From: a virus
Strand: one strand, 5' to 3'
DNA length: 64,000 bases
Virus record (IMG/VR): IMGVR_UViG_3300042896_000648
Span: 14,549 to 78,548 of that record
Under the pieces are notes generated by a model that was not told the DNA's origin, ran no database searches, and worked only from the letters and a program-made list of their open reading frames with translations. The translations under genes and the position numbers were made by a program. Positions 135 through 64,000 of this stretch are shown in pieces (positions within the stretch are counted from its first letter, which is position 1; the number at the start of each line of letters is the position of its first letter).

Positions 135-142
135 TATATTTG
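135..142 (+). promoter_or_regulatory. Bacteroidota sigma70-type -7 promoter element (TATATTTG) for the replication operon
   Basis: Matches TAnnTTTG, intergenic, followed by a structured leader and ORF 274. Confidence 0.6.
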
Positions 143-152
143 TAATACGATT

Positions 153-260
153 TAGCGATCGAAGCATTAAAGAAAATATTTTGCCATTTTTTGGTCTGAT
201 TCTATGGGGTTTTTGATGCACCCTCGCTACATAGAAGACGACCGAAAAGTGGCTTTTTTT
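153..260 (+). promoter_or_regulatory. Structured 5' leader / attenuator-like terminator upstream of the replication operon
   Basis: Long hairpin GCCATTTTTTGGTC..TTCTATG / CATAGAA..GACCGAAAAGTGGC followed by T7. The 5' segments TAGCGA and GCATTAAAG are complementary to its loop. Confidence 0.6.
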
Positions 261-273
261 ATTTAAAAAAAAC

Positions 274-783
274 ATGATTATAATACCAGAAATTGGATTT
301 GACAAAGAAATAAACTTACTCTATGAAGATAGAGGTTTTATTCACCATTATTACACAAGAGAAAAAATAAATGCATTAGTTAATTCTGTTGTAGCACTTG
401 CTAATGAAGCATTGGAATTAATGGATAAAAATAATTTATCAGATGATTTTGTAATTAGTTATAATAAGTTAAAATCAGATAAAGAAAATTCTGGATTTTA
501 TTCTAATGGACAAAAATCAAATAAAAATACAGCTAGGATTGTAGATTTATATTTAATACAAAATACTAATAATAAAAATTTAAAAATAGGTATATCTAAA
601 AATGTTAACTTACGACTACTTTCTCTTCAGTCAAATAATTCAGATAAGTTAGAAATTATATCCGTTATTAAAAACAAATCTAATATTGAAAGACAATTAC
701 ACAAAAAATTTAGCAATTTAAGAATATATAAAGAATGGTTTAAATATGACGAATCTATTGTTAAACATTTTGAATCACTATGA
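274..783 (+). CDS. T5orf172/MUG113-like GIY-YIG domain protein
   Basis: C-terminal LYLI..KIGISKN..RL..LQ..E..LHKKF..R..EWF pattern. Confidence 0.75.
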   Translation: MIIIPEIGFDKEINLLYEDRGFIHHYYTREKINALVNSVVALANEALELMDKNNLSDDFVISYNKLKSDKENSGFYSNGQKSNKNTARIVDLYLIQNTNNKNLKIGISKNVNLRLLSLQSNNSDKLEIISVIKNKSNIERQLHKKFSNLRIYKEWFKYDESIVKHFESL

Positions 784-10146: not shown

Positions 10147-10186
10147 AATAACTTGCAAATATAATTATTATTCATTACCTTTGTTT

Positions 10187-10525
10187 ATGGTTTTTACAGA
10201 AGAAATAGCTAAAGAGCTTCAAGGCTCTCTTAAATTACACAACATTACGGTTACCAGGTGGCGGGAGCGAGGTTTTATCCCTAAAAAGTATTTCTATACA
10301 TCAGAGATACAGATTAAGGGCATGAATTTACGGGAGGCTAGAAAGTATCTTAATCTTAGCCAAAACGTAGTTTGCTCGCTCCTAGCCAGAGAAGGTTGTA
10401 GTATAGCCCGCAACACCTTGTTAGTTTGGGAAAAAGGCACGCACCGGCCACAATTAAAGAATTTGAAGGCGTTGAAGAAAATCTACAACGAGTTAATAAA
10501 CAAGAAACAAGAATGGAAGAAATAA
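10187..10525 (+). CDS. XRE-type HTH transcriptional regulator, probably leaderless
   Basis: NLREARKYLNLSQ..ARNTLLVWEKG.HRP HTH. ATG lies 3 nt after the promoter element TACCTTTG (10176-10183). Confidence 0.75.
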   Translation: MVFTEEIAKELQGSLKLHNITVTRWRERGFIPKKYFYTSEIQIKGMNLREARKYLNLSQNVVCSLLAREGCSIARNTLLVWEKGTHRPQLKNLKALKKIYNELINKKQEWKK

Positions 10526-10983: not shown

Positions 10984-11088
10984 AGTAAGATGGCGGAATG
11001 GTAGACGCTACTACGTGATGTTCATGTATGCCTATATTATTTAGGTTTCGCTTACATGGCTTTACAGGTTCGATTCCTGTTCTTACTA
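10984..11088 (+). ncRNA. tRNA-like RNA with a non-canonical anticodon/variable region
   Basis: Perfect acceptor AGTAAGA/TCTTACT, Leu-type D-arm GGCGGAATGGTAGACGC and T-arm ACAGG-TTCGATT-CCTGT. The central 45 nt do not form a standard anticodon arm. Confidence 0.7.
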
Positions 11089-58412: not shown

Positions 58413-58441
58413 TTAAATTCTGAGTGGGTCAGATTGTGCTA

Positions 58442-58531
58442 CAAAAATATACACTATTATGGGGTTATTTTTATATTTTAATATTAAATTCTTGCAATCT
58501 TTTGTAAAATGGATTAATTTTATTATATTTG
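58442..58531. promoter_or_regulatory. Divergent promoters: late-type (minus, 58442-58466) and early-type (plus, 58501-58531)
   Basis: AACC-N13-TATTTTTG and TTTG..TATATTTG. Confidence 0.6.
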
Positions 58532-59287
58532 TAATGAATTTAAATAAAAAAGAATGAAAATAGAAGTAAATAATATAACTGTAGAAGCTTGCTTAGAGTG
58601 GCTTTCCAAAAGTCCAGCTAATGTATTAATTGATATTAATATTAGCGAAATTATTAGATACTTGTTAAAGGAGGTCAGCGATTTAAAAGAAATAGTAAAT
58701 AAAATTGAATATGAAAGAGAGCAACAAGAATATTTAGAAATGGGGGATGATCTATGAAAAATATAAAAAAGAAGTTAAAATATGAATTTAAATAAAAACG
58801 AATGAAAATAAAAGTAACAGAGGATTTGGGTATCCAATTAGAAGAAGTTTTTAGTGGATTAACTCTAAAAACAGAGAGTGGCGAAACAATGTCAATTTGT
58901 ATGCGAGATAGTGGATTTGAGTTCAATTATGAAGGTAATTGGTATTTTGCAAAAGAAGGTTATGTTGAACCATTCCTCAAATCAGTTAGAGATAATTATT
59001 TAGTTTCTGAACTACAAAGGCACGAACATAATTCAGATATAAATGCAATGCCTATTAATAATGGTTTTTATATGGATGGTTTGATTTAAAAAATAATGAA
59101 AGTAAAAATAAACCTGCGTGATTATGTGTATACATGTGGCGATGGCTGTTGTACTGATTACGGAACTGTAACTACGGTTAATGGAGTTGAACTAGACTGT
59201 CATAACGAAGATAGAGTAACAATACTTACAAAAGTACTCGAACACTTGGGATATGAGGTGGAGATAGAGGAAAGTTATGATGGTGAA

Positions 59288-59895
59288 TAACGGAACGCAA
59301 CTAAACGCAGTTTAAATTTAATAATATGGATGAACAAATAAATGGTGTAGTTGAAACTATCCAACAACTTGAAAAGGAAAACGCAGAGCTTAAATTGCGT
59401 TTAGTTGCTGTTATGCAACGAAGTGAACAGTTAGAAGCCTTTATTGATGAATATATAGAAGCTTGGGAAGATGGTATGGCTGGTGATAGTGGATTAGTAT
59501 ATGATGCAAGGAAGTTAAAGGCTTCTAATTGCACATAACTTTAAAAATAACCGCAGTTTGCCTATACGGTTAGTTGATTCGGCAAATTGAGGTTATTGAT
59601 TGTTATATTCTCGGCTTTTTTTCACTAACAAATTAAATAAAAAATCATGAAAATAGTAAAGTACAAATGCAATCTTTGTCAAGAAGAAAAAGAAAGAGCA
59701 GAATTGACTGCTTTTTACTTTAAATGCGATATTATTCCTCAAAGATACGTTTTGGATAAAAGCAAAATAGATGAATGTGATAAGCATATTTGCGAAAAAT
59801 GTATAGAAACAATAATTGCAAATATTATTTAGCAAAATTATAGCTTGAGTAGCTTTCGCTAGAAAGTTGCTCAAGCTGGAATATAACAACTATAT
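59288..59895 (-). mobile_element. Integron-like cassette array 2 (two attC-like sites plus terminal half-site)
   Basis: Inverted repeats 59297-59315/59390-59408 and 59546-59562/59581-59597 framed by TAAC..GTTA. Cassette ends GTTATG/CATAAC and GTTATATTC/GAATATAAC. Confidence 0.65.
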
Positions 59896-60860
59896 ATACT
59901 ACTACTAACTTAACTAATTGATTTTTAATTAATTGAAATATAGAAAACTCAAAGCAAACAAAAAAGATTGAGAACATGATAGAAAAAGAAATAGAAATAC
60001 TAAAGAAACTCGCTCACATCATTAATATTAATGAAATTGAAGCGGTACTTGTACTTTCGCCATTTGCCCTGCGTAATTGTATTCGTTATGGCTGTTGTAA
60101 AGAAGTGAAATCCAGGCAAAATGAGTTTAAACAATTTGTAAATGATCGGTTTATATGAAAAAAGAGGAATTTAGAATTGGAAATTTCGTTGAGTATAAAG
60201 GTATAATCGCTACAGTACTAGAGGTATTTAATAGTGGTGGCAGTTATCTTACAACTATTGAATACGAAGTTCCATTAGGCCAGAAAATGATTAAAAGTGT
60301 TGAAATATTATCAGATTCATTAAAGAAAATTCCACTAACTAAAGATTCGCTGGTTAAATTCAATTTCATACATAGTGAAGCTACGCCTAATATGTGGTTC
60401 TTGCCTGAAGTTAATTTTGAGATTTACTACTTCGAGTTTCCTTCGGGTTCACTAGAGAATGGATTTTACTTTAATATTCGACATCCCTATGATGTTCACG
60501 TTAAGTGGGTGCATCAGTTACAAAATTTAGTTTACAGTTTAAAAGATATTGAATTATGAAACTATTCAAAACAATCTTAAAATGTGCCTTTGAAGCCCTT
60601 ATTATGATAGTCTTCAGCATTATTATTGTAATTTCTGTTCTTTTATCCATGTACTTAATTAGTTTTCTATGAAAAATTCATATATCGAAGTAAAACTGTT
60701 CACAGAAGAACAAGCCATAACAATTATGCCTAATCTGAATAGAGATGGAGTAAAAATTTCTATTTCAGAGGAGGGAAGGGAAACTGTTGGGATATATTTA
60801 ACAAGCCAAGAAGCAGAGGATTTTGCTGATGAAATAAAAAAGTACATTAAATAAAAAAAA

Positions 60861-61352
60861 ATGGAAAAAAATTTAAAATTAAGTAACAACCTTAATAGTA
60901 TTGAAGAAATATGCACTATTTCACACTTGCAAGATGTAAATACAGACTTAATACTTATGATGCTTGGACAAAAGATTGGGAGCGGTTCGTACAGGAGTGT
61001 TTATAATTACAATATGAACGATAAGCTAGTTGTTAAAATAGAACCAAATTCAACTGAACAGAACATTTCAGAATTTATTATGTGGGATGAAATAAGAGGC
61101 TTAAAGGAAGATAAGGCTTGGGTTAAAGATTGGTTTGCACCTATTCATTGGTGTAGCCCAAATGGAAAGATTTTAATTATGGAGAAGACATTTCAAAAAA
61201 ATAAGCCAAAGCCAAAAGAAATTCCGAAGTTTCTTTCAGATGTAAAGTCGGCTAATTTTGGATGGATAGGTAATAAATATGTTTGCCATGATTATGGGTT
61301 TATATATCCATTCATAGAATATAAAAAATCATTTAAAAAAGTAATTTGGTAA
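60861..61352 (+). CDS. Minimal protein-kinase-like protein
   Basis: Gly loop IGSGSYRSVY, VVKIE, helix-C E, catalytic DVKSAN, DYG in place of DFG. Confidence 0.65.
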   Translation: MEKNLKLSNNLNSIEEICTISHLQDVNTDLILMMLGQKIGSGSYRSVYNYNMNDKLVVKIEPNSTEQNISEFIMWDEIRGLKEDKAWVKDWFAPIHWCSPNGKILIMEKTFQKNKPKPKEIPKFLSDVKSANFGWIGNKYVCHDYGFIYPFIEYKKSFKKVIW

Positions 61353-61560
61353 TGACCTACACTATCATTTATCGCAAAGATAACCAGCTGTTTCGGGTAA
61401 AACTTAACGGCTATACCGTAGAAGGTGTTATTGAGAAGTTCCGTGAGAAGGAAACCTTTAAAAACGTGCGAATTACGTCCGTATCTGAATATATTGAGCC
61501 GGTAAAGCCTAAATATTCAGATTTTGGTAGTATATTTGGAGATATATTTAAATAAATAAG

Positions 61561-61908
61561 ATGCCAATAAATTATAAATTATATCCTCCTGATTGGAGTG
61601 AAATAAGAAAAAGAATTTTAGAGCGAGCCAATGATTCTTGTGAAATGTGTGGATTAAATAATAAGTCTAAAATCCACTCATTTAAAGAAAATAAAGTTAC
61701 TATTTGGCGTGATTTAAGCTATGCCGAATGGTTAGATAGAGGTTCGCCAAAGCATATTACGGTTGTTTTAACTATCGCACATTTAGATCACGATGAAACT
61801 AACCACGAAGTTAAAGACGATAGATTAATGGCTTTATGTCAGCTTTGTCATTTAAGATACGATATAGAAGAAAAAAATAAAAGAAGGATTTCAAAATGGA
61901 AGAAGTAG
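61561..61908 (+). CDS. HNH endonuclease
   Basis: YP.DW..IR..IL.RA...CE.CG..VLTIAHLDHD..N..L.ALCQ.CHL.YD. Confidence 0.85.
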   Translation: MPINYKLYPPDWSEIRKRILERANDSCEMCGLNNKSKIHSFKENKVTIWRDLSYAEWLDRGSPKHITVVLTIAHLDHDETNHEVKDDRLMALCQLCHLRYDIEEKNKRRISKWKK

Positions 61909-62093
61909 AAATGTTATTGATTTCAAAGGGTTTTAATAAAACGGTAAAGCCATCGAACTTATTTATTAATAATAAGTGTTCTATATATATTAACGGATAC
62001 TATAGAGTAGACTTTAATGGGAGTTCTTGGTTTTCGAATAGCTTATCTGTTTATGAATTACTAGGATTTTTAACTTATTACGATTTAATATAA

Positions 62094-62167
62094 GCATTTG
62101 TGGTGAAGTGGTTTAACATCTCGGCTTGCAACACCGATATTCGGGGGTTCGAATCCCTCCAAATGCT
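62094..62167 (+). tRNA. trnC: tRNA-Cys(GCA)
   Basis: GCATTTG/CAAATGC acceptor, loop TTGCAAC, GGTTCGAATCC T-arm, U73 discriminator. No encoded CCA. Confidence 0.85.
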
Positions 62168-62186
62168 CTAACTAAACAACAAGATT

Positions 62187-62339
62187 ATGCCACTAAAGAA
62201 AGGAAAAAAGAATGTTGGTAAAAACATTCGAGAAGAAAAAAGAAAGCACCCTGAAATGAGTGATAAACAAGTACTTGCTATAGCTTTGTCGGCCGCAGGA
62301 GTAAAGAAAAAGAAAAAGAAGAAAAAGAAGAAAGAATGA
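62187..62339 (+). CDS. Small basic protein (MPLKKGKK..QVLAIALS..poly-K)
   Basis: 50-aa ORF read by hand, coupled to ORF 62336. Confidence 0.6.
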   Translation: MPLKKGKKNVGKNIREEKRKHPEMSDKQVLAIALSAAGVKKKKKKKKKKE

Positions 62340-62946
62340 GAAAAGCACACGGTTACATAATCGAAAGAGTTATTTATTATGATAAAGAACTTGGTATTAC
62401 TGATTCATATTCGCAAAATAATAAATATTACGCAACTTTAAAGCACGCAGAAGAAGCAATAAGTAAAATAAGAGAAAATTATCCTACTTGCGAGTTTCGA
62501 TTAGTTGAAATGTTTGAAACCTATACAGGAAAGTGTAGCGAAGGAATACATTGGTATGTTTGGTTTTACGAAAATAATAGGCCGGTAAAAAGAAAGTGTA
62601 GATTTTGTGAAAAAGAAGAAATAATTTTATAAAAATGAATATACCAGAAAATTTACTCGATGATGAAGGTTATCCAACAGAAGAAATACTTGAATTCATT
62701 ACCAAATACGAACCTAATGAGGATATTGAAGACTTCGTGGAACTAATTAGATCTATTTGGTGGCGTAAAGGTTGGGGCTTTAAAAAATATCGGTATAAAG
62801 GCCGAACTAAATTAGAACTACATACAGGCGGTTGGAGCGGTAATGAAGAGATAATGTCAGCCATAGAATCCAATCGCATACTAGGTATTTTCCTTAGGAA
62901 GACTATGTGGAAAAGAGGCGGACATTATTATTATGAATATTTTTAA
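62336..62946 (+). other. Two hypothetical ORFs (62336-62632, 62635-62946)
   Basis: Coupled ORFs. The second has an LHTGGWSGNE..W.RGGHY motif. Confidence 0.6.
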
Positions 62947-62976
62947 AAAATAATTTTTATTTATGATAAATTATAT

Positions 62977-62984
62977 TATATTTG
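62977..62984 (+). promoter_or_regulatory. Promoter -7 element of the tRNA operon (TATATTTG)
   Basis: Consensus match 4 nt before the leader ATG. Confidence 0.7.
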
Positions 62985-62988
62985 CATT

Positions 62989-63039
62989 ATGAAAAGAATT
63001 TTAACATATTGCTATTCTAGTTGGTCGACCAAAAGTTGA
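62989..63039 (+). CDS. Putative attenuator leader peptide MKRILTYCYSSWSTKS
   Basis: 16-codon, probably leaderless ORF with the run TAT TGC TAT TCT AGT TGG TCG. Confidence 0.7.
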   Translation: MKRILTYCYSSWSTKS

Positions 63040-63069
63040 ATCAAGTAGAATATCTGTGTAAAAGCTTAT

Positions 63070-63101
63070 ACCTCCTTGATTCACTTCTTGGAGGTTTTTT
63101 T
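63070..63101 (+). terminator. Conditional (attenuator) terminator before the tRNA operon
   Basis: ACCTCC..GGAGGT plus T-run, overlapped by the alternative helix TGAATCAAG/CTTGATTCA. Confidence 0.75.
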
Positions 63102-63108
63102 ATTATAC

Positions 63109-63181
63109 GCATCTCAATGCTAAGGCAAAGCGAGTTGGTCTCCAAAACCGACTGAATTAGGTTCGATACCTAAGAGGTGTG
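63109..63181 (+). tRNA. trnW: tRNA-Trp(CCA)
   Basis: Cloverleaf with anticodon loop CTCCAAA. Confidence 0.85.
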
Positions 63182-63190
63182 CAGTTATAT

Positions 63191-63272
63191 TGTAAAGTTG
63201 AGCAGGTGGTGAGCAACATAGGTCTGTAAAACCTATCCTTCGGGTGTGCTGGTTCGATTCCAGTCTTTACAA
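63191..63272 (+). tRNA. trnY: tRNA-Tyr(GTA)
   Basis: TGTAAAG/CTTTACA acceptor, loop CTGTAAA, variable arm CCTTCGGG. Confidence 0.88.
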
Positions 63273-63298
63273 CAAGTATCGGTAGGGTACTTAATTAT

Positions 63299-63381
63299 GG
63301 AGGTGGTCTGAATGGACGAAGACACGGTCTTGAAAACCGCTGGCCGTAAAAGGCTTACAGGTTCGATTCCTGTTGCCTCCG
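63299..63381 (+). tRNA. trnS: tRNA-Ser(TGA)
   Basis: GGAGGTG/TGCCTCC acceptor, loop CTTGAAA, long variable arm, G73. Confidence 0.88.
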
Positions 63382-63386
63382 CATAT

Positions 63387-63471
63387 AGAAGGTATTGTAA
63401 GTGGCTATACTAACTCGTTTGCTAAACGAACAGCGGTAAAACGCTTTAGGGTTCGACTCCCTAATCTTCTG
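63387..63471 (+). tRNA. trnS: tRNA-Ser(GCT)
   Basis: AGAAGGT/ATCTTCT acceptor, loop TTGCTAA, long variable arm, G73. Confidence 0.85.
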
Positions 63472-63516
63472 CAAAAATATTTTTAAAAAATAATTTTTAT
63501 TTTGAACTTTATATTA

Positions 63517-63626
63517 TATCTTTGTGTTATAATATTAATCGACAGGGGAGAGTCGGTTGTCCGGCTTTCTTACTGCAAATATTTAAAAAAGCCGAACTGC
63601 ATCCCCTGTCAGTTTTGGCTTTTTTT
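63517..63626 (+). promoter_or_regulatory. Promoter (TATCTTTG) plus switchable leader/terminator
   Basis: Terminator AAGCCGAACTG/CAGTTTTGGCTT-T. The 5' GACAGGGGA is complementary to the loop TCCCCTGTC. Confidence 0.65.
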
Positions 63627-64000
63627 ATGTATAGAATTTATACTTCCATTTCAGGTGATGCCATTAAGTCGGACAAAAGGTCTTATCAATTCCTTTTGCT
63701 TCTAAAATTGCGTGTGCTTGCATCAAAATGCGGTGGTAGATTCTATTTAAAGGATGCCATGAAGGCACTTGACCTAAATGAAAGAACCACAAAAAAACAC
63801 CTAAAAGAAATCACAGAGATTACAAAATACTCTGATGGATACCATTTCACTTCATTACTTCACTCACTAAACAAAAAAAATGCTTTCGTGCTTATCTCGC
63901 CAGAGGTGTTGAACTCTTTCTCATGGCTTAATATAGCCTCATTTAGAGCTTACCTTACCGAGATTAGTCTTACACGTTATAAAAGATACCAACATGCAAA
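63627..64000 (+). CDS. Partial ORF, possibly winged-helix DNA-binding (MYRIYTSISG...)
   Basis: Open frame from ATG 63627 to the window end, with a KDAMKALDLNERTTKKHLKEI HTH-like segment. Confidence 0.55.
   Translation, partial: MYRIYTSISGDAIKSDKRSYQFLLLLKLRVLASKCGGRFYLKDAMKALDLNERTTKKHLKEITEITKYSDGYHFTSLLHSLNKKNAFVLISPEVLNSFSWLNIASFRAYLTEISLTRYKRYQHA

What the first reader, a model, noticed from the sequence alone, without database searches (positions are those of the whole stretch)
62977..63471. Leader-peptide attenuator that may switch on phage tRNAs when those same tRNAs are depleted
Seen: the promoter element TATATTTG (62977) is followed 4 nt later by a 16-codon ORF, MKRILTYCYSSWSTKS. 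Seven consecutive codons (TAT TGC TAT TCT AGT TGG TCG) are Tyr/Cys/Ser/Trp and include both Ser codon boxes. These correspond to the five tRNAs in the window: Trp-CCA, Tyr-GTA, Ser-TGA and Ser-GCT directly downstream, and Cys-GCA at 62094. The RNA has the mutually exclusive helices of a trp-type attenuator. Helix 1:2 is TATTCTA.TTGGT (63013-25) with ATCAA.TAGAATA (63040-52). The 2:3 antiterminator is TGAATCAAG (63037-45, covering the stop codon) with CTTGATTCA (63075-83). The 3:4 terminator is ACCTCC/GGAGGT plus a U-run (63070-101). Established: in such attenuators, ribosome stalling on control codons frees segment 2 and prevents termination, and host anti-phage anticodon nucleases deplete specific tRNAs. 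Inference: the phage senses loss of charged or intact Tyr/Cys/Ser/Trp tRNAs and expresses replacements on demand, acting as a counter-defence sensor. I am not aware of a description of this, but cannot check the literature.
Basis: partly seen in the sequence, partly recalled or inferred. Interest (0 to 1): 0.95.

Follow-up and report, generated by a model that had tools for sequence, protein, structure and literature searches.

The report
Leader-peptide attenuator gating phage tRNA genes
An uncultured lake phage of Bacteroidota puts a 16-codon "test" gene, written in the codons its own tRNAs read, and a switchable transcription stop in front of four tRNA genes, so it probably makes these tRNAs mainly when ribosomes read those codons slowly; I found no paper describing such control of tRNA genes.

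Summary
The -7 box TATATTTG lies at 62977-84, and the ORF MKRILTYCYSSWSTKS at 62989-63039. Helices 1:2, 2:3 and 3:4 are present, and four tRNA genes (Trp, Tyr, Ser-UGA, Ser-GCU) start 7 nt after the U-run.

Three tests go beyond chance:
- A run of 7 Tyr/Cys/Ser/Trp codons has P about 8e-5 in random 15-codon ORFs. It occurs in none of 22,753 windows of the phage's proteins.
- Folding with a ribosome parked at codons 6-9 gives a 16-bp antiterminator. Free RNA, or a ribosome at the stop codon, gives the terminator. Only 6 of 600 shuffles behave this way.
- The predicted transcription start is the A of the ATG. Two of 11 Bacteroid-trp attenuators sampled from Bacteroidota genomes have the same 4-nt box-to-ATG spacing, ORF size and geometry.

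Weaknesses:
- No relative carrying the leader or the tRNA cluster could be found, so there is no covariation test.
- There are no RNA data.
- The same phage has two further promoter-then-terminator leaders without a matching ORF.
- tRNA-Cys lies outside the gated block.

The attenuator reading is likely (about 0.6). The counter-defence sensor idea is untested. This scan has noted similar leaders in other phages; those notes are unchecked.

The parts
62936..62962 (+). 27-nt AT-rich element upstream of the promoter. An identical copy lies at 63476-63502, upstream of the next promoter.
   Evidence: two exact copies of the 23-nt core; 0.05 expected by chance. The extension to 27 nt was read directly.
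62977..62984 (+). Bacteroidota sigma-A -7 box, TATATTTG. The extended form TTTGCA is shared with other early promoters of this phage.
   Evidence: The box position of -12 to -5 comes from PMC9723704.
62989..63039 (+). Leader ORF of 16 codons plus TGA: MKRILTYCYSSWSTKS. The predicted transcription start is its first base, so the mRNA would be leaderless.
63007..63027 (+). Control codons 7-13: TAT TGC TAT TCT AGT TGG TCG (Tyr Cys Tyr Ser Ser Trp Ser). Each of the phage's five tRNAs has at least one codon here that it could read.
62999..63063 (+). Hairpin 1:2 (anti-antiterminator, likely pause hairpin). The 5' arm carries the control codons and the stop codon lies in the 3' arm.
63029..63045 (+). 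Segment 2, the upstream strand of the antiterminator.
63075..63092 (+). Segment 3, the downstream strand of the antiterminator. It covers the terminator loop and the inner ends of both terminator arms.
63070..63101 (+). Intrinsic terminator 3:4: ACCTCC / GGAGGT with a 14-nt loop, followed by a U-run.
   Evidence: -9.7 kcal/mol, T-run of 7.
63109..63182 (+). tRNA-Trp (CCA). It starts 7 nt after the U-run, which leaves no room for a promoter of its own.
63191..63273 (+). tRNA-Tyr (GTA)
63299..63382 (+). tRNA-Ser (TGA)
63387..63472 (+). tRNA-Ser (GCT)
62094..62168 (+). tRNA-Cys (GCA). Its codon is present in the leader, but the gene lies in the upstream operon and is not gated by the terminator.

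Best explanation
This is a ribosome-mediated (leader-peptide) transcription attenuator that gates the tRNA-Trp/Tyr/Ser/Ser operon of a 78-kb Bacteroidota phage.

**How it would work.**
1. Host sigma-A RNA polymerase starts at the A of the ATG (62989).
2. A ribosome loads on this leaderless RNA and reads 16 codons.
3. If Tyr, Cys, Ser and Trp codons are read quickly, the ribosome reaches the TGA and covers segment 2. The hairpin 63070-95 plus the U-run then forms, and transcription stops 7 nt before tRNA-Trp.
4. If no ribosome loads, hairpin 1:2 forms and the result is the same.
5. If the ribosome lingers on codons 6-10, the 5' arm of hairpin 1:2 is held. Segment 2 (63029-45) then pairs with 63075-92, the terminator cannot form, and the four tRNA genes are transcribed.

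The output, phage tRNAs for these same codons, would relieve the stall. The circuit is therefore a negative-feedback supply sensor.

**Shown in the sequence or by computation:** the parts, their geometry, the three exclusive folds, and the non-random codon run.

**Inferred:** the transcription start, translation of the ORF, termination efficiency, and the response to tRNA shortage.
For: 1. **Transcription must pass the terminator.** The four tRNA genes have no room for a promoter of their own, since there are only 7 nt between the U-run and tRNA-Trp. Every transcript that reaches them has to read through the terminator.
2. **The default state is off.** The terminated fold is -30.4 kcal/mol and the antiterminated fold is -20.9. 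An active disruptor of the 5' arm of hairpin 1:2 is therefore needed, and the ORF lies exactly on that arm.
3. **Masked folding gives the expected switch.** With the A-site at codons 6-9 the fold is a 16-bp antiterminator (-17.9 kcal/mol). With the A-site at codons 13-17, including the stop codon, the terminator returns. Only 6 of 600 dinucleotide shuffles of the upstream part reproduce this behaviour. The 2:3 duplex energy is reached by 28 of 2000 shuffles.
4. **The codon run is not chance.** P is 7.9e-5, or 7.7e-6 if all five tRNA classes must be represented. There are 0 such 7-residue windows among 22,753 in the phage's proteins. It is the only one of 560 short ORFs in the genome with a run above 5.
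5. **The promoter fits.** The box lies at -12 to -5 in flavobacteria (PMC9723704), which puts +1 on the A of the ATG. The TAnnTTTGCA form recurs at other early intergenic regions of this phage.
6. **There is a precedent for the layout.** I looked at 11 Rfam Bacteroid-trp leaders from 141 Bacteroidota genomes.
   - Two have the box-4 nt-ATG spacing.
   - Their ORFs are 15-21 codons long, with the control codons on the 5' arm of hairpin 1 and the stop inside the hairpin.
   - Their antiterminator strand pairs with the terminator loop plus 3' arm.
   - ATG to the end of the U-run is about 118 nt there, against 113 here.
Against: - No relative with this leader or tRNA cluster was found, so neither the ORF nor the helices could be tested for conservation or covariation.
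- The same phage has two other promoter-then-terminator leaders with alternative pairings but no codon-matched ORF. They are at 63517-63625 (upstream:terminator duplex -32.3 kcal/mol, reached by 0 of 2000 shuffles) and at 135-262. This phage therefore also uses some ORF-independent way of passing promoter-proximal terminators.
- tRNA-Cys is not in the gated block.
- The terminator looks weak: a 6-bp stem and a 14-nt loop.
- Leaderless mRNAs are a minority, 5.5% in F. psychrophilum.
- In the masked folds, stalls at codons 10-11 gave the terminator and codon 12 gave only the short 9-bp helix.
- Whether tRNA-Ser(UGA) reads TCT depends on a U34 modification that is unknown here.
- A quick look at 13 unrelated phage tRNA loci and at Bacteroides phage crAss001 showed no convincing equivalent.
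Confidence: 0.62

Rival explanations
1. The RNA is a real terminator/antiterminator switch, but something other than the ribosome operates it. Candidates are a phage or host antitermination protein, an RNA-binding factor, a small RNA, or folding kinetics, serving for example to time early and middle genes. On this reading the short ORF and its codons are incidental.
For: Two more promoter-proximal terminator leaders in the same genome have strong alternative pairings and no matching leader ORF. These are unit 63517-63625 and unit 135-262. Units 1 and 2 share an identical 27-nt upstream element, which could be a common regulator site.
Against: An incidental ORF would need three coincidences. 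It would have to start at the predicted +1, cover exactly the 5' arm and stop at segment 2. It would also have to carry a 7-codon run matching the phage's tRNA set, with P about 1e-4 to 1e-5. No antiterminator family was hit among the 40 phage proteins scanned against PHROGs or the 10 locus neighbours scanned against Pfam, though that is weak evidence. The 9.5 kcal/mol gap in unit 1 needs an active disruptor of the 5' arm.
Confidence: 0.17
2. There is no regulation. The hairpin plus U-run would be a leaky terminator for the upstream early operon, or a stabilising or processing structure ahead of the RNase P site of tRNA-Trp. The tRNAs would then be made constitutively by partial read-through, and the ORF would not be translated.
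For: The terminator is modest (6-bp stem, 14-nt loop, -9.7 kcal/mol). The upstream + strand operon (58554-62946) has no other terminator before this point. TAnnTTTG matches are not enriched in the window overall (104 found, 95 expected).
Against: This reading does not explain the 16-bp alternative helix, the switch behaviour (6 of 600 shuffles), or the codon run. The unusually large terminator loop is explained if it has to carry segment 3.
Confidence: 0.13
3. The roughly 113-nt terminated transcript is itself the product: a phage small RNA, or an mRNA for a functional 16-residue peptide rich in Tyr, Cys, Ser and Trp.
For: A strong-looking promoter followed by a terminator would give an abundant short, well-folded RNA (z = -3.8). 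Attenuator-derived small RNAs with functions of their own are known (rnTrpL, PMC6614838, listed).
Against: There is no Rfam match. The reading does not explain the match to the tRNA set or the antiterminator. It is also compatible with the attenuator reading rather than exclusive of it.
Confidence: 0.05

Closest known systems
Multivalent leader-peptide attenuators of enterobacterial amino-acid operons (thrL, ilvL; prototype trpL). From my own knowledge of the Yanofsky model.
   Same: A short promoter-proximal ORF with clustered control codons for several amino acids. Three mutually exclusive helices 1:2, 2:3 and 3:4. The stop codon lies at the start of segment 2. A U-run terminator lies about 70-90 nt after the control codons. 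The default state is termination.
   Different: The gated genes are tRNA genes of a phage, not biosynthetic enzymes. The signal would be the supply of tRNA rather than of amino acid. The mRNA is predicted to be leaderless. Segment 3 is largely the terminator loop.
Bacteroid-trp leader (Rfam RF01692)
   Same: The same phylum-specific layout, tested here. It has a TAnnTTTG box, and the box-to-ATG spacing is 4 nt in 2 of 11 sampled members. The ORF is 15-21 codons, with control codons on the 5' arm of hairpin 1. The antiterminator pairs with the terminator loop and 3' arm. Total length is similar.
   Different: There is no sequence or model similarity: the family is not among the matches at E up to 5. 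Its control codons are WWW only, and it precedes trp genes of bacteria.
pheM leader attenuator of the pheST (Phe-tRNA synthetase) operon of E. coli. From my own knowledge.
   Same: A leader peptide rich in one amino acid's codons controls a component of the decoding machinery for those same codons.
   Different: It gates a synthetase rather than tRNA genes, it is cellular rather than viral, and it has a single amino acid's codons.
T-box riboswitches
   Same: Transcription attenuation that reports on the state of a specific tRNA.
   Different: A T-box binds uncharged tRNA directly and has no ORF. There is no T-box match here.
Phage tRNAs as counter-defence (T5-like tRNA-Tyr against retron-Eco7, PMC11555353; anticodon-loop variants, PMC10264068)
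   Same: Phage-borne tRNAs, including Tyr, replace host tRNAs that are depleted.
   Different: Those tRNAs are reported to be driven by a strong constitutive promoter. Neither paper mentions an attenuator or a leader.

Membership tests
Leader-peptide transcription attenuator (trpL type) | Short ORF between the promoter and the regulated genes, with clustered codons cognate to the regulated product | tested here: met
   16-codon ORF at 62989-63039. Codons 7-13 are all Tyr/Cys/Ser/Trp. P is 7.9e-5. It is the only such ORF among 560 short ORFs.
Leader-peptide transcription attenuator (trpL type) | Mutually exclusive helices 1:2, 2:3 and 3:4, with an intrinsic terminator directly before the regulated genes | tested here: met
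   The U-run ends 7 nt before tRNA-Trp.
Leader-peptide transcription attenuator (trpL type) | The ribosome's position decides the fold: a stall at the control codons gives the antiterminator, and the stop codon or no ribosome gives the terminator | tested here: met
   Tested in silico only. 6 of 600 shuffles behave the same way. Stalls at codons 10-12 gave mixed results.
Leader-peptide transcription attenuator (trpL type) | The leader ORF is translated and read-through responds to the supply of cognate charged tRNA | not testable with these tools
   No RNA run holds the locus. The read-laying run was lost to a filter.
Leader-peptide transcription attenuator (trpL type) | The ORF and helices are conserved, with covariation, in relatives | tested here: inconclusive
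Leader-peptide transcription attenuator (trpL type) | The regulated genes are amino-acid biosynthesis or synthetase genes | tested here: not met
   The downstream genes are four tRNA genes. I therefore file this as a variant of the kind, not a classical member.
Rfam Bacteroid-trp (RF01692) | Match to the family covariance model | tested here: not met
   The family is not among the matches at E up to 5 on 61900-64000. The layout is shared, but this is not homology.
T-box riboswitch | Match to the T-box model (specifier loop, T-box bulge) | tested here: not met
   No T-box match.
Protein-dependent antitermination (lambda Q/N type) or put-type RNA | A phage-encoded antiterminator, or a conserved polymerase-modifying RNA shared by the gated units | tested here: inconclusive
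   No antiterminator family was hit among the 40 proteins scanned against PHROGs or the 10 scanned against Pfam. Most small early proteins have no known family. By eye, the three units share no RNA motif.

The most novel reading that the evidence does not exclude
The attenuator is an on-demand counter-defence sensor. When a host tRNA-cleaving defence (anticodon nuclease, PIN or Toprim tRNase) depletes tRNA-Tyr, -Ser, -Trp or -Cys, ribosomes stall on the leader. The phage then switches on replacement tRNAs, so defence activity is converted directly into expression of the antidote.
Probability: 0.2. Interest if true: 0.9.

Novelty: new variant of a known kind. Interest (0 to 1): 0.72.

Why it matters
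Phage tRNA genes have been explained by codon compensation and, more recently, by escape from tRNA-cleaving defences. How their expression is controlled is essentially undescribed. The one case I read reports a strong constitutive promoter (PMC11555353).

A leader peptide that measures how fast the phage's own tRNA codons are decoded would be a direct tRNA-supply sensor acting on tRNA genes. That extends the classical attenuation logic from amino-acid supply to tRNA supply.

This locus is a compact test case. It has five tRNAs for four amino acids and a 113-nt leader, and all parts fit in a 500-bp reporter construct for a Flavobacterium or Bacteroides host. Unchecked notes from this scan report similar leaders in several other uncultured phages, so the device may be widespread.

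Tried and rejected
**Relatives**
- The neighbouring 103-aa protein found only homologues of 55% identity or less in viral, metagenome and genome contigs, none with tRNAs nearby.
- Whole related records were searched for tRNA genes. The only hit was one unrelated tRNA-Met.
- The primase/helicase found two relatives, both without tRNAs.
- The downstream 235-aa protein found no relative.
- DNA patterns from the AT-rich element, tRNA-Trp, the back-translated control region and the 2:3 helix gave only unrelated hits or none.
- The best lead is P0002, 70% identical, on a 29.6-kb JGI contig.

**Expression**
- No RNA holder was listed. Only the probable source sample holds the stretch.

**Other checks that led nowhere**
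- Rfam has no family for the leader. The weak Phe_leader and snoR20 matches (E above 1) are noise.
- The sigma-70 promoter and simple terminator scan does not apply to Bacteroidota promoters. It also missed the terminator because of its 14-nt loop.
- For generality I checked 13 unrelated phage tRNA loci and crAss001. They gave only weak, unconvincing short ORFs and no attenuator structure.
- Counting cognate codons against the downstream set only (Ser/Trp/Tyr) gives 7 of 15, P = 0.005. That is not exceptional among about 35 tRNA blocks scored the same way. The strength lies in the uninterrupted run that includes Cys.

**Readings rejected**
- T-box or another known riboswitch: no Rfam match.
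- Read-through of the upstream gene's TAA into the leader. The leader is in frame with it, but homologues of the upstream protein end at the same place.

Full report
**Context.** The window is the last 64 kb of a 78,548-bp IMG/VR virus record. Its ends repeat 127 nt, so the assembly is circular. The only run that holds the stretch in full is a lake-water metagenome, which is probably the source sample. Three things point to a Bacteroidota host:
- weak nucleotide hits to Flavobacterium columnare phages;
- homologues of a neighbouring protein in Bacteroidales, Bacteroidetes and Thermaurantimonas genomes;
- TAnnTTTG-type promoters in the early intergenic regions, often extended to TTTGCA.

The locus lies inside a long + strand block of small early genes that begins at the divergent region 58413-58553. 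HNH endonuclease genes flank the tRNA region.

One search shows TATATTTG at 62977-84, then 4 nt, then ATG 62989. The ORF reads M K R I L T Y C Y S S W S T K S and ends at TGA 63037-39.
- The four downstream tRNA genes are Trp-CCA, Tyr-GTA, Ser-TGA and Ser-GCT. tRNA-Cys is at 62094. All are real by ARAGORN and/or Rfam.
- The free RNA folds into a long hairpin (62999-63063), then the terminator ACCUCC/GGAGGU and a U-run (-30.4 kcal/mol, z = -3.8).
It extends to about 16 bp, 63029-45 with 63075-92.
- tRNA-Trp begins 7 nt after the U-run. Every transcript that reaches the tRNAs must therefore pass this terminator.

**Is it more than chance?**
- *Codons.* In random 15-codon ORFs of this base composition, a run of at least 7 codons from the Tyr/Cys/Ser/Trp set has P = 7.9e-5. 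Requiring all five tRNA classes to be represented gives 7.7e-6. None of the 22,753 seven-residue windows in the phage's proteins is all Y/C/S/W. Among 560 ATG-started short ORFs in the genome, this is the only one with a run above 5.
- *Structure.* The 2:3 duplex energy (-18.2 kcal/mol) is reached by 28 of 2000 dinucleotide shuffles.
- *Behaviour.* I folded the leader with the nucleotides under a ribosome made unavailable.
  - With the A-site at codons 6-9, the best fold is the extended antiterminator and the terminator is gone.
  - With the A-site at codons 13-17, which includes the stop codon, or with no ribosome, the terminator forms.
  - Only 6 of 600 shuffles of the upstream 81 nt show this full pattern.
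- *Energy gap.* The terminated state is 9.5 kcal/mol more stable than the antiterminated one. The default is therefore off, and something has to hold the 5' arm of hairpin 1:2. That arm is exactly where the ORF's control codons lie.

**Can the ORF be translated when it starts 4 nt after the promoter box?** In Flavobacterium psychrophilum the TAnnTTTG box occupies -12 to -5, and 5.5% of mRNAs are leaderless (PMC9723704). That puts +1 on the A of the ATG. To see whether attenuators in this phylum use this layout, I took the curated Bacteroid-trp family (RF01692) from 141 Bacteroidota genomes and examined the 11 hits.
- All have a Trp-Trp-Trp leader ORF of 15-21 codons behind a TAnnTTTG box.
- The box-to-ATG spacer is 15-21 nt in eight, 7 nt in one, and exactly 4 nt in two (L063, L064).
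- Folding shows the same architecture as here. The control codons lie on the 5' arm of the first hairpin and the stop codon lies inside that hairpin.
- The antiterminator strand pairs with the terminator's loop and 3' arm. ATG to the end of the U-run is about 118 nt, against 113 here.

The phage leader is not a homologue of that family, since there is no model match. It is built the same way.

**What argues for caution.**
- *No comparative evidence.* The flanking 103-aa protein has homologues of 55% identity or less in the collections I could scan, none with tRNAs nearby. The two primase/helicase relatives carry no tRNAs. Pattern searches for the leader found nothing related. The calls are listed under Tried and rejected.
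- *ORF-less units in the same phage.* Two more units show the order promoter, hairpin, terminator, gene, with no codon-matched ORF.
  - The first is 63517-63625, just downstream of the tRNAs and ahead of a 235-aa gene. It shares an identical 27-nt AT-rich upstream element with the tRNA leader. Its upstream region pairs with its terminator at -32.3 kcal/mol, reached by 0 of 2000 shuffles, and its two states differ by only 3.4 kcal/mol.
  - The second is 135-262, ahead of the replication genes.
  - The phage therefore also passes promoter-proximal terminators in some ORF-independent way, and a common factor could act on all three.
- *Other weak points.* tRNA-Cys is not behind the terminator. The terminator stem is short. 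Stalls at codons 10-12 gave mixed folds.
- *Not universal.* A quick look at 13 unrelated phage tRNA loci and at Bacteroides phage crAss001 found nothing convincing.

**Weighing.** The structural tests show a genuine three-state switch that gates the tRNA genes. An ORF on that switch by accident is improbable, even allowing for the size of the scan. It would have to start at the predicted +1, cover exactly the arm that must be held, and stop at segment 2. It would also have to be written for seven consecutive codons in the four amino acids of the phage's five tRNAs. My probabilities are:

| Reading | Probability |
|---|---|
| Ribosome-mediated attenuator | about 0.62 |
| Real switch run by another factor | 0.17 |
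| Unregulated leaky terminator or processing structure | 0.13 |
| Product in its own right | 0.05 |

**Function.** The circuit reports slow decoding of Tyr, Cys, Ser and Trp codons and answers by making tRNAs for them. The simplest reading is negative feedback on tRNA supply during infection. tRNA-Tyr is a documented defence target, and phage tRNAs are documented antidotes (PMC11555353, PMC10264068). Nothing here tests that reading, and I give it about 0.2.

**Novelty.** Searches of the paper library for leader-peptide or attenuation control of tRNA genes, in phages or in cells, found nothing. The nearest idea is that tRNA cleavage by a toxin activates ordinary attenuator-controlled genes (PMC10287673, seen; I read only the listed abstract). 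Earlier unchecked notes of this scan describe codon-matched leaders before tRNA blocks in several other uncultured phages. I treated them as leads only. One of them, about leader ORFs at the very start of Bacteroidota transcripts, prompted the Bacteroid-trp test above. I class this as a new variant of a known kind.

Noticed in passing
window 63476-63626: A second promoter-proximal switch lies just after the tRNAs. It has the same 27-nt AT-rich element, a TATCTTTG box (63517-24) and a hairpin at 63543-75. A terminator-like hairpin at 63585-63625 ends directly at the ATG of a 235-aa gene. The upstream part pairs with the terminator in two blocks, GACAGGGGA with UCCCCUGUC and CCGGCUUU with AAAGCCG. 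The duplex energy is -32.3 kcal/mol, reached by 0 of 2000 shuffles, and the two states are only 3.4 kcal/mol apart. There is no leader ORF and no Rfam family. This could be an unknown riboswitch-like or factor-dependent attenuator.
   Followed up: partly
window 135-275: A third unit lies ahead of the replication genes. It has a TATATTTG box (135-142), then a 71-nt terminator-like hairpin (183-253, -30.4 kcal/mol) with a T7 run, then ATG 275. Another reader also noted it (e1-6075379). Its alternative pairing with the 5' end is only marginal, reached by 89 of 2000 shuffles.
   Followed up: partly
window 10984-11088: A tRNA-like gene that default ARAGORN and the whole-window Rfam scan both missed. 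In a local scan it scores 36.8 bits to RF00005. It has a normal acceptor, D arm and T arm, but a 38-nt insert where the anticodon arm should be. By eye the insert folds into a hairpin with the 7-nt loop UAUUAUU. Its central triplet would be UUA, but U33 and a purine at 37 are absent.
   Followed up: partly
window 62936-62962 and 63476-63502: Two identical 27-nt AT-rich near-palindromic elements (AATATTTTTAAAAAATAATTTTTATTT) bracket the leader-plus-tRNA block. The first overlaps the stop codon of the upstream gene. They may be a shared UP element or regulator site, or a trace of the tRNA cassette being inserted behind a duplicated promoter.
   Followed up: partly
L044 (genome 3200-6700 and 9830-9870) and window 58524: The phage's early intergenic regions share an extended promoter form, TAnnTTTGCA(C/T)AG-TAAATTA. 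Several have a repeated AAACAATTTAAACAA motif just before the start codon, which may be a translation-initiation signal that does not use a Shine-Dalgarno sequence.
   Followed up: no
window 61561-61908; L044 503-1072 and 2494-2940: Three HNH endonuclease genes lie around the tRNA region, as is common for mobile tRNA regions of large phages. An anti-restriction (ArdA-like) protein is encoded at L044 6686-7234.
   Followed up: partly
window 10176-10190 (genome 24724-24738): TACCTTTG, then 3 nt, then the ATG of a 112-codon gene. This is a candidate leaderless protein-coding mRNA in the same phage.
   Followed up: no
L068 (Bacteroides phage crAss001) 1649-1675, 2180-2270 and 4140-4235: TATCTTTG, then CATC, then ATG ATT AGA AGA TAA. 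This is a 4-codon mini-ORF at the leaderless position, 8 nt before the tRNA-Gln/Arg/Glu/Asp block. It is too short and too close to the tRNAs to be an attenuator. Two stretches between annotated tRNAs look like unannotated long-arm tRNAs (Ser-UGA-like and Tyr-GUA-like).
   Followed up: no
L018, L019 and L021 (for example L021 10117-10188): In an unrelated phage group, a short ORF MKRLIVRIMKVINEGGIFFPPHK ends 6 nt before a tRNA-Pro/tRNA-Gly pair. The match is weak (P about 0.04) and there is no terminator structure.
   Followed up: partly
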